Shown: in pieces, positions 15,694 through 34,433 of the stretch | Numbering within the stretch: position 1 is the first letter of the stretch | Layout: every line of letters starts with the position of its first letter | IMG/VR virus record: IMGVR_UViG_3300002063_000003 | Length of the DNA: 42,604 nucleotides | Reading direction: 5' to 3' (one strand) | Origin: a virus | Made by a program: the position numbers and the translations under genes | Notes under the pieces: model-generated | What the model was told of the DNA's origin: nothing | Database searches by the model: none | The model's input: only the letters and a program-made list of their open reading frames with translations

Positions 15694-17181
15694 TTATACA
15701 TCCCAATCTATATCTATGTTAAAGTCTATGCTATCTAGCCCATCAGAATCGAATAAAGACGCTATAGAGACGTTTTTATACCCATCTGGTGTCTTAGGTG
15801 CCGGTTTGTGAGAAAGGAGCTCTACGGTGTAATTACAGGCCTGAAAGAAGTATCTCAAAGAATCGATATTATGATCATCACCCTTCCTAATCTTTCCATA
15901 GTCATCTTTTGCGTATCCAAGCATCTCACTTATTAAATTCTCACACCTACTAGAAATACGCATCAACTTCTTATCTAGTACATGATTTATAAGAGACAGC
16001 CCATCATCCTTCTTGGCATTATTCTTGTCTGTCGGTGTATATACAACATCAAATTGGTCCTGTATTTCCTTAGCCGCCCAAACACCTGCCTCATCATACC
16101 TTAAGAACCAATCTTTTTCCCAGTATTTACCAGGCTGCAGATTTAGGGCAATCTGCTTAATCTTTTTTCCTACCCTAGTTATTGTGGTATCTGGACCAGA
16201 CTCATATAGCTCATCCATTACGTCTACCATTCCAGTGTATGGGTTATATGCAATAAACAGTCCACCAAATACACTAGTAGTACCTGGATCAATTACTTGA
16301 TACCACTCCAAGTCATTTGCTACCTTAGTATGCTGTCTACGTAATATATCGTGATCAATCACAAAAGACTTTTCGTTGAAAAGCGGGAATACACTTCTAC
16401 TTCCACCAGCAATAATCTTATTATAGTACTCACGCTGAATTACATCTTCCCTTCCCTGCTTCCTGAGAGCCTCTATATCGTCCATAATCCTTTTATGGAT
16501 CCTTGGTCTATGATTAAGCGGATTGCAGAACGTAGTGGCCTCTATGCACTTCTGAGAGGGGTTTTCTTTTGCTATCTTAAGCATCGCGTTGTATTCACGC
16601 TTATTTCTAGCTAAATGGTCGGCCTTCGTTCCGATTACAACTAGTTTTGCACCCTTAGCTGCAACGTTCATTGACATCGTTCTATGGAATTCTGGGTGGA
16701 ATGCTTTAAACTCATCATATATGATTAAGTCAGGACTTAGTCCGTTTGCATTCTCATACCTTTCGCTACCCATTACCTGGATGTAAGATCCATTCTTTAA
16801 ACGAATAACTAGATCCCTATTGTTTGGCATACCTTGTATAAAGTGCTTTGCAATATCCTCGCCAAGAAACTTTTGCACCCTCCTATTCTTCCAAATGATG
16901 TTCTCACCATCTGCTCTAGTTGGTGCTACGTATAAAATATGGCTCCCTGGGTGTAAGACAGCCTGTTCCCAAGCTATGTGCAAGACTCCATGGGTCTTAC
17001 CACACTTACGTCCCCAAGGAGCGAATATGGTTGTTATATCAGGGTTCTTAAATGCGGTTATCAACTCCACTTGGGGTGGATTGAGTCCGTGCATAATACC
17101 CTCAACATCTTCATGTTCAGGGCGCTCTCTATACAGAGCTTTATTAAGAATAAGGTAGTCTTTCTTACTTATTTTTGCCAT
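15694..17181 (-). CDS. terL: Terminase large subunit
   Basis: 495 aa. Walker A-like GRKCGKT, Walker B LIIYDEF, nuclease-domain motifs VIDPGTT and DDHNIDSLRY. Confidence 0.92.
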   Translation of the reverse strand: MAKISKKDYLILNKALYRERPEHEDVEGIMHGLNPPQVELITAFKNPDITTIFAPWGRKCGKTHGVLHIAWEQAVLHPGSHILYVAPTRADGENIIWKNRRVQKFLGEDIAKHFIQGMPNNRDLVIRLKNGSYIQVMGSERYENANGLSPDLIIYDEFKAFHPEFHRTMSMNVAAKGAKLVVIGTKADHLARNKREYNAMLKIAKENPSQKCIEATTFCNPLNHRPRIHKRIMDDIEALRKQGREDVIQREYYNKIIAGGSRSVFPLFNEKSFVIDHDILRRQHTKVANDLEWYQVIDPGTTSVFGGLFIAYNPYTGMVDVMDELYESGPDTTITRVGKKIKQIALNLQPGKYWEKDWFLRYDEAGVWAAKEIQDQFDVVYTPTDKNNAKKDDGLSLINHVLDKKLMRISSRCENLISEMLGYAKDDYGKIRKGDDHNIDSLRYFFQACNYTVELLSHKPAPKTPDGYKNVSIASLFDSDGLDSIDFNIDIDWDV

Positions 17182-17890
17182 ATACTGCTCTAGCTATGTC
17201 TAGTGCTTTAAGTAGTTGTTTTCTAGTGACAGAAATTGAGTCAATATCGTTACCTGCATAAAGCACACCAACTACTTCGCCTTCATAATTAAAGGTAGGG
17301 GAGCCAGAGTTACCTGGACGAGTTACTACAGAAGATACATATGATTCAACACACCGGATGTCCTGCTCAACATAACCCCCGTAGTTAATGCACACTTTTT
17401 CTGTGTATTGCATAAAGCCTTCCCTAACTGTTAGGGGATATCCTTTAGGGTGACCCATAACAAATAGGGGATCGAAAGCTCTGGGATCCTCCTTAGCTAC
17501 ACTAAGTCCCTTTGTAGCTGTTGATGTAAGGATACAGACATCCGCTCCCTGATCTACGTGAATAACGCGTTGTATGGACGTGCCTACGATTCTAAATCCA
17601 GGGAGAGGAGCAGTTTTATCACTGGCCTCACAGCAGTGTCTGTTTGTTACGGTGTAAATTTTACCTCTATGGTATATAGAGGAAGCAGAACAGTATCTAC
17701 GGCCCGTTATAGTCCGCATAGACTGAATAAAAGGGGCAATGTACCTATACTTTGCTGATTCAGATTTTGAGTTAACTATACTTGATAGTTGAATGTTACT
17801 TTGACTAACAGGTTCTAACCTTCTATTGGCCTCAAGGGAAAGGCCAAAGACCAGCCCTATAATTGCTACTATCTTTAGCATTCTTTTCAT
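17165..17890 (-). CDS. Secreted trypsin/chymotrypsin-fold serine protease
   Basis: Sec-type signal peptide MKRMLKIVAIIGLVFGLSLEA. Catalytic triad contexts TNRHC (His), ADVCIL (Asp) and GNSGSP (Ser). Confidence 0.8.
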   Translation of the reverse strand: MKRMLKIVAIIGLVFGLSLEANRRLEPVSQSNIQLSSIVNSKSESAKYRYIAPFIQSMRTITGRRYCSASSIYHRGKIYTVTNRHCCEASDKTAPLPGFRIVGTSIQRVIHVDQGADVCILTSTATKGLSVAKEDPRAFDPLFVMGHPKGYPLTVREGFMQYTEKVCINYGGYVEQDIRCVESYVSSVVTRPGNSGSPTFNYEGEVVGVLYAGNDIDSISVTRKQLLKALDIARAVYGKNK

Positions 17891-18638: not shown

Positions 18639-18873
18639 TATTAGCCCCTTCTGGCTCTTCGTGTTTTAGACTCATACTGACTAGACTAGAGTGAACTAGC
18701 TCCATAAGCTCATTTAAGCCATCTGATTCTTTAACATTACCCGCATCCAGCTCCTGCTTAAGGACTAGGTATAGGGCTTCCATCATCTGAGCACAATTGA
18801 TAAATGCGCCTTTCCAGATATCAGCTGCTGCCTCTAATTTGGCCTTACTTATAGTCTTTTTGTTTAGTTTCAT
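18631..18873 (-). CDS. Hypothetical protein
   Basis: ORF 18631..18882 in the track begins at GTG. ATG 18873 (MKLNKK...) is preferred. Confidence 0.45.
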   Translation of the reverse strand: MKLNKKTISKAKLEAAADIWKGAFINCAQMMEALYLVLKQELDAGNVKESDGLNELMELVHSSLVSMSLKHEEPEGANNE

Positions 18874-19300
18874 TGTTCCCACGTTTACCTCGCTTACGTT
18901 TCTGTTTCTTTTCCTTAATTCTTCGCGCCCTATTGGTTTCCCACTCTTCCACTAGCGTTTTCATAGCGTTTTTCACCCTTTTCGCCTGAGAACACAGTTT
19001 TGGAGCATGATGTCCAACCACCTCACAGACGATTTCCTCAAACATCGCGCTATCCAAGTCCTCTAGCTCATGTACATATGTAGAGGCTAGATAGGCATGC
19101 ATAAGCTCATGCCTAATTACTGCAAGTTCCTGATTTTCAAAGGAAAAATAGATTTCTTTAGTATCACTTTTGATAAATGCAGCTGACCCGGGGACTATTT
19201 TATTAAGCTCATGTTGAGTACCAAGGAATATTGTATACCTATCCCCTCTAATTAGGGTGGTCATTACTTTAGTGACCCTCTGGTCATCCCTTCTGCTCAC
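18845..19300 (-). CDS. HExxH zinc metallopeptidase-like protein (SprT-like) with a highly basic tail
   Basis: GTG start with AAGGGGA upstream. Motif IRHELMHAYL and C-terminus RRIKEKKQKRKRGKRG. First gene after the large ORF-free region. Confidence 0.45.
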   Translation of the reverse strand: MSRRDDQRVTKVMTTLIRGDRYTIFLGTQHELNKIVPGSAAFIKSDTKEIYFSFENQELAVIRHELMHAYLASTYVHELEDLDSAMFEEIVCEVVGHHAPKLCSQAKRVKNAMKTLVEEWETNRARRIKEKKQKRKRGKRGNNETKQKDYK

Positions 19301-20216
19301 TTGTTTCCCCTTATCTGTACCTGGTCAAGTAATAATCTTACCATAATTACATGGGTTTTGTCCAGTTTTGATACACTGCGTTCGCAGAAGGGGAAGTTAA
19401 GTGTACTATAAAGAACATTTTCGCCCTATTTATGTGCTATATAGTACACATTATGGACTACTTTTTAGTCCTTTGACCTGTTTCTTAGTGGCCAGACGCC
19501 CCTATACATATTTACATAGAATTTTATAGAAAAGGTATGCAATTTTACATTTAAAGTGCTCTAAGTGCCCTATATTACTAGCAGAGGGGGCCTAATTTTA
19601 CATAACAGATGTTCATGTGGTGACACCATAGACCCCATGCAAGAGTCATGCCATCCCTAGTGGGGGACCATAAATTTTAGTGGCCCTTATATAGATATTG
19701 TTTATACCTCTACTGATACTTGGCATGGTATGTGCTATTGCAATAAGCTAGCCAGTCCTATAATGAGATGCTGTAGGCAAAGCTGTGCATTAGAGAATGG
19801 TAAATAGCATGATGAATGACATAGTTGGCATGAATGTTGGGCTCCATGTACTCTATCAGTAGCCCTTGCTAAGCCCTATGCTGTCCTCAGATCGAATGTG
19901 TTACCTATATATAGTATCAATAATAGCGGTTTCAATGACTGCGCCGACGCCTAAAGCGTCGAACCTATATGAAACTGTCATGATACTTGATAACGATGAT
20001 TGTTGTATTACTTCACTAGTTCATCTATAATAGAACGGCGAAATTAGGTTGTCAAGTAAATTTTCCCGACATCTAATATACTAGCACTTGAGTGTAAAAA
20101 AGTTTATATTGCCTCATTTTGATACTAGTTATCATTTATTTACTAGCCTATTGCAGAGCGCTAAAGCTCCAGTAAGAGCCCTCAGTATTCGTTTTAATGA
20201 TAGGCAGGTATTCATC
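19301..20216. other. 916-nt ORF-free region: candidate long leader, ncRNA, origin or packaging region
   Basis: The track shows no ORF of 60 or more codons in any frame. My manual scan of ATG-initiated ORFs on both strands found none longer than 29 codons, and none with an SD. Many local inverted and direct repeats. Confidence 0.6.
20027..20055 (-). promoter_or_regulatory. Near-consensus sigma70-like promoter firing leftward
   Basis: On the minus strand: TTGACA (20055-20050), a 17-nt spacer, then TATTAT (20032-20027). Confidence 0.6.
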
Positions 20217-22260: not shown

Positions 22261-22397
22261 TGCATTTTTTACAAAAAAGTTTCAGGCTGTCAATATTTTA
22301 TACAAATGTCATAAGTTTGACACTAATATGCTACAGAATTCAGCTGGGCTGGCCCATGTATTGCATAATACTTAGAATGATTATAAGAAATTATTAT

Positions 22398-26495: not shown

Positions 26496-26579
26496 GTTTT
26501 TTACAATGTCAAAGGCTTATACAGTTAAATCAAATTTATGGCTAGTGTAGTTGGCACTAGCATTGCATTAGTTATTATG

Positions 26580-34387: not shown

Positions 34388-34433
34388 GTTGGCACATGCC
34401 TTGCTCTATAGCTAATAACAACAAGGAGAAAAT

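What the first reader, a model, noticed from the sequence alone, without database searches (positions are those of the whole stretch)
19301..20216. 916-nt ORF-free region with a near-consensus leftward promoter feeding the late operon: long leader, large ncRNA, origin or packaging site
In an otherwise gap-free genome this is by far the largest non-coding stretch. The ORF track shows nothing of 60 or more codons. My manual scan of ATG-initiated ORFs on both strands found none longer than 29 codons, none with an SD.

The region lies between the end of the leftward early genes (20217) and the first gene of the terminase/structural operon (GTG 19300). A TTGACA-N17-TATTAT promoter (20055-20027, minus strand) would produce a leader of roughly 720 nt before that gene.

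The region is dense in local structure:
- A 10-bp inverted repeat GTGTACTATA/TATAGTACAC (19401-19410 / 19440-19449).
- GGACTA/TAGTCC (19455-19471).
- TGGTG-A-CACCA (19618-19628).
- The GC hairpin CGACGC/GCGTCG (19945-19961).
- An ATTGCAAT palindrome.
- AATTTTACAT twice (19541-19550 and 19594-19603), plus ATTTACAT at 19510.

Large ornate phage-associated ncRNAs (GOLLD- or ROOL-type) occupy similar ORF-free slots, but I cannot match this sequence to them by eye.
Basis: partly seen in the sequence, partly recalled or inferred. Interest (0 to 1): 0.62.

Follow-up and report, generated by a model that had tools for sequence, protein, structure and literature searches.

The report
Phage late-operon control region, sigma-54 promoter
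The largest gene-free stretch of this uncultured marine phage is probably the control region ahead of its DNA-packaging and virion genes: it holds an ordinary promoter, a sigma-54-type promoter (a type barely documented in phages), and a long untranslated leader dotted with runs of C, not a large structured RNA.

Summary
19301-20216 is the largest ORF-free stretch of a complete 42.6-kb phage genome, and no stop-codon recoding opens it. The listed repeats and the TTGACA-N17-TATTAT promoter are present.

Relatives (large terminase 39-59% identical) nearly all keep an ORF-free gap of 0.3-1.2 kb at the same place. The gap sequence hardly aligns. What is conserved is an architecture:
- Sigma-54-type -24/-12 promoters (TGGCAC-N5-TTGCA) facing the late genes. 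The window has one good copy (19653-19638) and one weak copy (19754-19739). Relatives have up to six in tandem.
- A 200-360-nt leader carrying strand-specific runs of five to eight C.

The same promoter motif sits 26-44 nt before start codons in other intergenic regions of these genomes. It is about 14-fold over-represented.

No sigma-54 activator ATPase is encoded. Rfam finds nothing in the window or in 13 relatives. Excess RNA folding is not a family trait.

This scan had already noted sigma-54 promoters in other phages and at 26552 of this genome.

Verdict: a promoter-plus-leader region, a new variant of a known kind. The role of the C-runs is unexplained.

The parts
19301..20216 (-). ORF-free control region between the leftward small genes and the packaging/structural operon
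   Evidence: Largest ORF-free stretch. Not opened by recoding (17-19). A syntenic ORF-free gap is present in relatives (14, 15, 37, 40, 42, 43, 62).
20027..20069 (-). Sigma-70-type promoter TTGACA-N17-TATTAT (20055-20027) with a conserved upstream flank TCGGGAAAATTTACTTGACAA (20069-20049)
   Evidence: 11 of 12 consensus matches. The 21-mer recurs with one mismatch at the same place in relative L029, followed by TATATA.
19638..19653 (-). Sigma-54-type -24/-12 promoter TGGCATGACTCTTGCA. The predicted start is near 19627, giving a leader of about 327 nt to GTG 19300.
   Evidence: 10 of 11 core matches with GG/GC at the right spacing. Relatives carry 1-6 such sites in the syntenic gap.
19739..19754 (-). 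Weak sigma-54-like site TGGCTAGCTTATTGCA.
   Evidence: 9 of 11 matches, but it lacks the near-invariant A of TGGCA. TATTGCAAT recurs in relatives' gaps.
19662..19666 (-). C5 run, 9 nt upstream of the sigma-54 site
   Evidence: C-runs are enriched and strand-specific in the gaps of all relatives examined.
19586..19590 (-). C5 run in the leader (AGGCCCCCT, the family's commonest context). In the MFE it pairs with the G-run in AUAGGGGCG (minus-strand GGGG at 19502-19499).
19401..19449 (-). Hairpin with 18-nt arms in the leader
   Evidence: I1, 89% complementary. Present in the MFE and the centroid.
19388..19395 (-). UUCCCCUU, predicted to pair with the Shine-Dalgarno AAGGGGAA (19312-19305) of the first late gene
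   Evidence: MFE and centroid of the leader. Coordinates read. Not general in relatives, which have other SD sequences.
18845..19300 (-). First gene of the packaging/structural operon (151 aa from GTG; gene callers use ATG 19264, 139 aa)
   Evidence: It is followed by the HTH/terS-like gene, the trypsin-like protease and the large terminase.

Best explanation
The gap is the transcriptional control region and untranslated leader of the late (packaging and virion) operon.

Shown by sequence and comparison:
1. It is non-coding here and at the same place in a large family of ~42-kb uncultured marine podovirus-like phages.
2. It starts with a near-consensus sigma-70 promoter (20055-20027) that points at the late genes.
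3. It holds a good sigma-54-type -24/-12 promoter (19653-19638) in the same direction, and a weaker one at 19754-19739.
4. The same motif, correctly oriented, sits 26-44 nt before start codons in other intergenic regions of this phage and its relatives.
5. Behind the last sigma-54 site the late operon alone has a 200-360-nt leader. That leader carries runs of five to eight C on the transcribed-sense strand.

Inferred:
- Host RNA polymerase with sigma-54 starts late transcription near 19627.
- No activator ATPase is encoded by the phage. The switch must therefore come from a host enhancer-binding protein or from an unrecognised phage factor.
- The sigma-70 promoter gives an earlier or basal transcript. 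In a 720-nt untranslated stretch without an intrinsic terminator, that transcript is open to Rho-dependent attenuation.
- In the window the leader folds so that UUCCCCUU masks the ribosome-binding site of the first gene.

The C-runs are conserved but unexplained. They may be sites for the terminase, for a regulator, or for Rho loading.
For: Non-coding and syntenic:
- for the window.
- Gaps of 327-1158 nt just upstream of the first packaging-operon gene in L002, L004, L018, L021, L022, L023 and L024.

Sigma-70 promoter.

Sigma-54 motif:
- In the window, five sites match at 10 of 11 or better, against 0.36 expected (0 of 200 simulations reach five).
- Sites 19653, 26552 and 34390 (10 of 11 or better) and 21172 (9 of 11) are intergenic and face the next gene.
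- Across 552 kb of the family there are 44 sites, against 3.1 +/- 2.5 expected. Of these, 21 lie in the 7.5% that is non-coding.
- Positions I did not select on follow the published extended consensus YTGGCACGr: T before TGG in 27 of 45 sites, and a purine at the next two positions in 38 and 32 of 45.
- Relatives hold arrays in the syntenic gap: L018 six, L021 five, L044 four.

Leader and C-runs:
- Leader length is conserved.
- In the eight gaps there are 27 C5 runs against 4 G5 runs. Outside the gaps the rate is 0.04-0.45 per kb.
- There are 65 unique C-run sites in 20 gaps.
- Leader fold z is -2.4 on the sense strand and -0.95 on the antisense strand.
Against: - There are no expression data. 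The host is unknown (no relatives in prokaryote genomes), so its possession of rpoN is unproven.
- No PF00158 activator domain is found in this phage or in five complete relatives. Sigma-54 promoters are silent without an activator.
- Relatives also carry antisense copies of the motif inside the gap, some of them perfect. A simple late-promoter reading does not explain these. They would fit a binding-site array or a sigma-54 sponge.
- The window's second site (19754) lacks a near-invariant base.
- Contig ends pile up in the gap, and one 43.9-kb linear contig ends in it. The long 'leader' may therefore exist because a cos/pac site or genome terminus lies there.
Confidence: 0.6

Rival explanations
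1. The gap, especially the C-run part, is the packaging recognition region or the physical genome terminus (cos/pac site or a collapsed direct terminal repeat). It would lie just upstream of the packaging operon, as cos does in lambda-like phages. This can coexist with the promoters.
For: - At least 10 related contigs start inside the gap. Ends are denser there than in the 2 kb nearer the terminase, and none fall 3.2-4.5 kb upstream.
- Several contigs start within about 20 nt of a C-run.
- A 43.9-kb linear contig (ctg14240l) ends 23 nt before the first late gene, with the rest of the gap at its other end.
- One assembly of this very phage breaks at 19539.
- The C-runs are specific to this gap, unlike the sigma-54 sites.
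- The nearest cultured terminases are T5-like, at 25% identity. From my own knowledge these are phages with fixed ends and terminal repeats.
Against: - The linear contig has no terminal repeat of any length.
- The IMG/VR 'terminal repeats' of this phage and two relatives are 49-123-nt overlaps lying elsewhere.
- Contig ends do not fall at one consistent position.
- Two otherwise identical phages diverge exactly at a GGGGCCCCC palindrome in the gap. Strain mosaicism alone could therefore break assemblies here.
Confidence: 0.25
2. The TGGCAC-N5-TTGCA elements are not used as promoters. They would be an array of binding sites, either for a phage DNA-binding protein or as a sponge that ties up the host's scarce sigma-54.
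For: - Sites are tandem and closely spaced (28-42 bp in L018 and L044) and occur in both orientations.
- No activator is encoded.
- L018 encodes a 116-aa protein with two Fis-type HTH motifs right next to its array.
Against: - Outside the gap the sites are single, intergenic, correctly oriented, and at promoter-like distance (26-44 nt) from start codons.
- The flanking positions follow the sigma-54 consensus.
Confidence: 0.12
3. The gap encodes a large structured non-coding RNA (GOLLD/ROOL-like or new), made from the sigma-70 promoter.
For: - Minus-strand fold of 19301-20030: z -3.6 from only 20 shuffles, against -1.6 for the plus strand.
- Leader z -2.4.
- No intrinsic terminator, so the RNA would be long.
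Against: - No Rfam match in the window or in 13 relatives.
- Gap sequences do not align.
- Across 15 phages the mean z is -0.81 on the sense strand and -0.79 on the antisense strand.
- The promoter-bearing half has z -1.3.
- The conserved islands are promoter elements, not helices.
Confidence: 0.05
4. The gap is the replication origin, activated by transcription from the tandem promoters as at the T7 primary origin.
For: - Tandem promoters lie next to an AT-rich 5' part in several relatives (27-32% GC in L069, L046, L049, L043).
- The phage has T7-like replication genes.
Against: - In the window the 5' part has the genome's average GC (0.38).
- Cumulative skew turns at about 22 kb and 36 kb, where the gene direction flips, not at the gap.
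- No iterons are found beyond chance repeats.
Confidence: 0.06

Closest known systems
Bacterial sigma-54 (RpoN) -24/-12 promoters with enhancer-binding proteins (glnAp2/NtrC, pspA/PspF, Pu/XylR)
   Same: The core TGGCA(C/T)-N5-TTGCA has GG and GC ten bases apart. The extended consensus matches. The sites sit before genes.
   Different: They lie in a phage. No AAA+ activator is encoded. No recognisable upstream activating sequence was found. Relatives stack up to six sites, some inverted. The late copy is followed by a 200-360-nt leader.
Pseudomonas phage YuA (sigma-70 plus sigma-54-like promoters; Ceyssens et al. 2008 as cited in PMC10914365)
   Same: A virulent phage that relies on host polymerase and has a sigma-54-like promoter beside sigma-70 ones.
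   Different: YuA is an unrelated siphovirus with one such promoter reported. Here the motif recurs at several transcription units and across a whole marine phage family.
Lambda late control region (pR', long transcript crossing cos before Nu1/A)
   Same: A promoter lies far upstream of the terminase genes, with non-coding DNA in front of the packaging operon. That DNA may also hold the packaging site.
   Different: No terminator follows the promoter and no Q-like antiterminator is recognised. A cos site here is unproven.
Large phage-associated ncRNAs (GOLLD RF01998, ROOL, HEARO)
   Same: They occupy long ORF-free slots in phage genomes.
   Different: There is no covariance-model match, no conserved helices and no family-wide folding excess.

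Membership tests
Sigma-54 (-24/-12) promoter | GG and GC doublets exactly ten bases apart within YTGGCACGr-N3-TTGCW | tested here: met
   19653-19638 is TGGCATGACTCTTGCA, 10 of 11 core matches with purines after TGGCAT. Site 19754 is only a partial match.
Sigma-54 (-24/-12) promoter | Occurs more often than chance, in non-coding DNA, and oriented towards the next gene | tested here: met
   Window: 5 sites against 0.36 expected. Family: 44 sites against 3.1 expected, 21 of them in the 7.5% non-coding. Distances to same-strand start codons cluster at 26-44 nt.
Sigma-54 (-24/-12) promoter | A cognate enhancer-binding AAA+ activator (Sigma54_activat, PF00158) is available | tested here: not met
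   No PF00158 match at E<=1 in six-frame searches of this phage or of five complete relatives. A host activator cannot be assessed.
Sigma-54 (-24/-12) promoter | The host encodes rpoN and transcription depends on it | not testable with these tools
   The host is unknown. No relatives were found in 185,579 prokaryote genomes.
Large structured phage ncRNA (GOLLD/ROOL/HEARO/raiA) | Match to the family covariance model | tested here: not met
   Rfam 15 gives no hit at gathering score in the window or in 13 relatives. In the gap at E<=10 there is only noise.
Large structured phage ncRNA (GOLLD/ROOL/HEARO/raiA) | Conserved secondary structure with covariation among relatives | tested here: inconclusive
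   The gaps do not align, so covariation cannot be counted. Family-wide fold z is about -0.8 on both strands.
cos/pac site or terminal repeat | Physical DNA ends (read-start pile-up, coverage step) within the region | not testable with these tools
cos/pac site or terminal repeat | Independent linear assemblies end at the site, with or without a terminal repeat | tested here: inconclusive
   Ten or more contigs start in the gap. One complete-length linear contig ends in it without any repeat. The end positions are not consistent, and strain mosaicism is present.
Replication origin | AT-rich unwinding block, iterons, and a skew switch | tested here: not met
   GC of the window's gap equals the genome mean. 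The skew turns elsewhere. Repeats are at chance level.
Lambda-type late leader (promoter, terminator, antiterminator) | An intrinsic terminator shortly downstream of the late promoter | tested here: not met
   No terminator-like site on the minus strand between 20027 and 19301.

The most novel reading that the evidence does not exclude
A widespread family of uncultured marine phages times its packaging and virion genes with host sigma-54 promoters, often stacked in arrays, without encoding the ATPase activator that every known sigma-54 promoter needs. The conserved long leader with C-runs would then be where a new, non-AAA+ phage factor (or the terminase) acts. That would couple late transcription to another step of the cycle.
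Probability: 0.3. Interest if true: 0.75.

Novelty: new variant of a known kind. Interest (0 to 1): 0.58.

Why it matters
Sigma-54 promoters are thought of as tightly gated cellular switches. In phages they are barely documented: in my literature searches, a single promoter in phage YuA.

A whole phage lineage may place them before its late genes and other transcription units while carrying no activator. If so, either it exploits a host enhancer-binding protein, which would tie phage timing to host physiology, or it has a new way to open sigma-54 complexes.

The family also offers a clear, testable unknown: gap-specific, strand-specific C-runs in a conserved long leader in front of the packaging genes.

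For annotation, it shows that the biggest 'empty' stretch of such phages is regulatory DNA, not a hidden RNA gene.

Tried and rejected
- **Alternative genetic codes** (TAG, TGA or TAA as sense): nothing opens.
- **tRNA/tmRNA:** none.
- **Rfam:** nothing in the window, in the gap at E<=10, or in 13 relatives.
- **DNA similarity to 50,697 phage records:** none.
- **Phage-polymerase (T7-like) promoter idea from the TATAGGG enrichment:** no extended consensus among all such sites and no phage RNA polymerase, so I dropped it.
- **Global alignment of gaps and pairwise blastn:** almost nothing aligns.
- **Close relatives for covariation:** the first late protein has no homologues outside this phage. 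All other assemblies of the phage are 100% identical. Covariation in the window's leader therefore could not be tested.
- **Third copy of the RNA elements noted at 26.5 and 28.7 kb:** no similarity.
- **C-runs as a general anti-Shine-Dalgarno element:** this fits the window only; relatives have other SD sequences.
- **C-runs as a strong C>G Rho-loading zone:** only a slight C excess, +0.06 against -0.11 in the genes.
- **A conserved regulator gene next to the gap:** none is shared.
- **Host assignment through prokaryote genomes:** no hit.

Full report
**What the window is.** The window is a whole IMG/VR virus record of 42,604 nt. Its 'direct terminal repeat' is a 49-nt exact overlap that lies inside a gene, so the assembly is a circle and the true ends are unknown. 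Other assemblies of the same phage are 100% identical over the region.

The genes point to a podovirus-like phage:
- a P22/SU10-type portal, a T7-type tail-fibre N-terminus and a large terminase;
- a primase-helicase, a family A DNA polymerase and exonucleases;
- no phage RNA polymerase.

Genes run leftward from about 22.2 kb to position 1 and on through the end of the record. They run rightward from 22.3 to 36.3 kb. GC skew follows gene direction.

**Check of the observation.** 19301-20216 is the largest stretch without an ORF of 60 codons (916 nt; the next are 356 and 327 nt). No stop-codon reassignment opens it. There is no tRNA. The promoter TTGACA-N17-TATTAT at 20055-20027 on the minus strand matches 11 of 12 positions. 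The first extends to an 18-nt-arm hairpin.

**Relatives.**
- No phage record matches at the DNA level. The nearest cultured large terminases are T5-like, at only 25% identity.
- Metagenomes hold a large family: terminase 35-59% identical and primase up to 63%.
- Every relative whose contig reaches far enough has an ORF-free gap just upstream of the first gene of the packaging operon. The sizes are L002 836 nt, L004 1048, L018 1118, L021 1158, L023 680, L024 717 and L022 327, with more. The gap is therefore a conserved feature and not a dead gene.
- The gap sequences hardly align.

**What is conserved inside.** Shared short words on the late-sense strand are CATGCCAAC, TATTGCAAT and AAAGGCCCCCTT. 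Laid side by side, the first two belong to copies of TGGCA(C/T)-N5-TTGCA, the -24/-12 promoter recognised by sigma-54.

In the window's gap:
- 19653-19638 reads TGGCATGACTCTTGCA (10 of 11).
- 19754-19739 reads TGGCTAGCTTATTGCA (9 of 11). It lacks a base that is A in 44 of 45 family sites.

Elsewhere in the window, sites lie in intergenic DNA and face the next gene:
- 26552 (11 of 11);
- 34390 (10 of 11; 29 nt before the start codon, behind a terminator-like hairpin);
- 21172 (9 of 11; 26 nt before the start codon).

A further site at 22350 (10 of 11) falls inside a called ORF. It lies in the divergent early region.

Statistics:
- The window has five sites at 10 of 11 or better, against 0.36 expected. 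None of 200 simulations reaches five.
- Over 552 kb of the family there are 44 such sites, against 3.1 +/- 2.5 expected. Of these, 21 fall in the 7.5% that is non-coding.
- Positions I did not select on agree with the extended consensus YTGGCACGr (my knowledge of Barrios et al. 1999). T precedes TGG in 27 of 45 sites, and purines follow TGGCAC in 38 and 32 of 45.
- In five complete genomes many sites lie 26-44 nt before a same-strand start codon.
- In the syntenic gap, relatives carry one to six sense-oriented copies: L018 six, L021 five, L044 four.

I read these as promoters. Antisense copies, some of them perfect, also occur in relatives' gaps. In genomes with divergent genes they fit leftward promoters. 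In others they remain unexplained.

**No activator.** Sigma-54 promoters need an AAA+ enhancer-binding protein.
- Six-frame searches with PF00158 find none in this phage or in five complete relatives.
- Pfam screens of 57 ORFs show no sigma-54-related domain.
- L018 encodes a 116-aa protein with two Fis-type helix-turn-helix motifs next to its array, but the window has no counterpart.
- The host is unknown.

**The leader and the C-runs.**
- From the last sense sigma-54 site to the first late gene the distance is 338 nt in the window and mostly 200-360 nt in relatives. At other sites it is 26-44 nt.
- This leader carries runs of five to eight C on the sense strand. The eight gaps hold 27 C5 runs against 4 G5 runs, with 0.04-0.45 per kb outside the gaps.
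- There are 65 unique C-run sites in 20 gaps. They share little beyond the run itself, an A-rich 5' side, and a following T or A.
- The window has C5 runs at 19666-19662 and 19590-19586.
- Unlike the promoter motif, the C-runs are specific to this gap.
- The sense strand of the gaps is only slightly C-rich.
- I could not assign the C-runs a function.

**RNA structure.**
- Rfam finds nothing.
- The window's leader (19594-19295, minus strand) folds better than shuffles: z -2.4, with 1 of 200 shuffles as good. The opposite strand gives -0.95.
- The promoter-bearing half gives -1.3 on the minus strand and +0.1 on the plus strand.
- In the predicted fold, the C5 run at 19590 pairs with the G-run in AUAGGGGCG (minus-strand GGGG at 19502-19499). 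The 18-bp hairpin forms. UUCCCCUU (19395-19388) pairs with the Shine-Dalgarno AAGGGGAA (19312-19305).
- Across 15 phages the last 300 nt of the gap average z -0.81 on the sense strand and -0.79 on the antisense strand.
- A large conserved structured RNA is therefore unlikely. A phage-specific leader fold is possible.

**Packaging or terminus.**
- At least ten related contigs start inside the gap. Ends are denser there than nearer the terminase, and none lie 3.2-4.5 kb upstream.
- A 43.9-kb linear contig ends 23 nt before the first late gene. The remainder of the gap, including the conserved sigma-70 promoter, is at its other end. It has no terminal repeat.
- One assembly of this phage breaks at 19539.
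- Against a terminus: the end positions are not consistent. Also, two otherwise identical phages diverge exactly at a GGGGCCCCC palindrome in the gap. Strain mosaicism could therefore break assemblies.
- This rival stays open, and it can coexist with the promoters.

**Literature and earlier notes.**
- Searches found one precedent, the sigma-54-like promoter of Pseudomonas phage YuA (PMC10914365).
- rpoN effects on Salmonella phages are indirect (PMC8744999).
- I found the motif first and then looked at this scan's notes. They report a sigma-54-type promoter at 26552 of this genome and sigma-54 promoters in other uncultured phages, some with their own activator and one cluster without. These are unchecked AI notes. 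I verified only the 26552 site.

**Verdict.** The gap is most likely the control region and long leader of the late operon. It combines a sigma-70 promoter, a sigma-54-type promoter, and conserved but unexplained C-runs. It is a new variant of a known kind of element. My confidence in the promoter-plus-leader reading is 0.6.

Noticed in passing
window 26552-26567 (+), 34390-34405 (+), 21172-21157 (-), 22350-22365 (+): Further sigma-54-type promoter matches (11/11, 10/11, 9/11, 10/11). The first three are intergenic and face the next gene. Sites 34390 and 21172 lie 29 and 26 nt before start codons. Site 22350 falls inside a called ORF in the divergent early region.
   Followed up: partly
L018 1726-2076: In the closest relative, the gene just before the gap encodes a 116-aa protein with two Fis/NtrC-type helix-turn-helix motifs (faint HTH_8). 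It lies next to six tandem sigma-54 sites. The window has no homologue.
   Followed up: partly
L022 2753 / L036 165: Two phages from sister samples are 100% identical for 8.2 kb to the right of a GGGGCCCCC palindrome in the gap and unrelated to its left. This is a sharp mosaic boundary.
   Followed up: partly
L029 1-432 and L020 1-23 (contig ctg14240l, 43,934 nt): A complete-length linear contig has both ends in the gap and no terminal repeat. It lacks the sigma-54 sites and C-runs seen in other relatives. These could be physical ends or an assembly break.
   Followed up: partly
L074 101-330 and 600-760 (G003 contig start): A more distant relative has arrays of GGTCA(A/G/T)-type hexanucleotide repeats that form small repeat-peptide ORFs at its contig start. 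It has no long gap before its late genes.
   Followed up: no
relatives' large terminase genes (P0003, P0006, P0019, P0022, P0036): Several relatives carry inteins or homing-endonuclease domains inside the large terminase (784-831 aa against 495 aa here).
   Followed up: no
L022-L024 about 70 nt before the first late gene (e.g. L023 3211, L024 3111, L022 3017): A conserved antisense sigma-54-type site fires back into the gap across the C-runs. Its transcript would carry G-runs. The window has no equivalent.
   Followed up: no
window 17165-17890: A trypsin-like protease gene lies between the HTH/terS-like gene and the large terminase. It is conserved in every relative examined.
   Followed up: no
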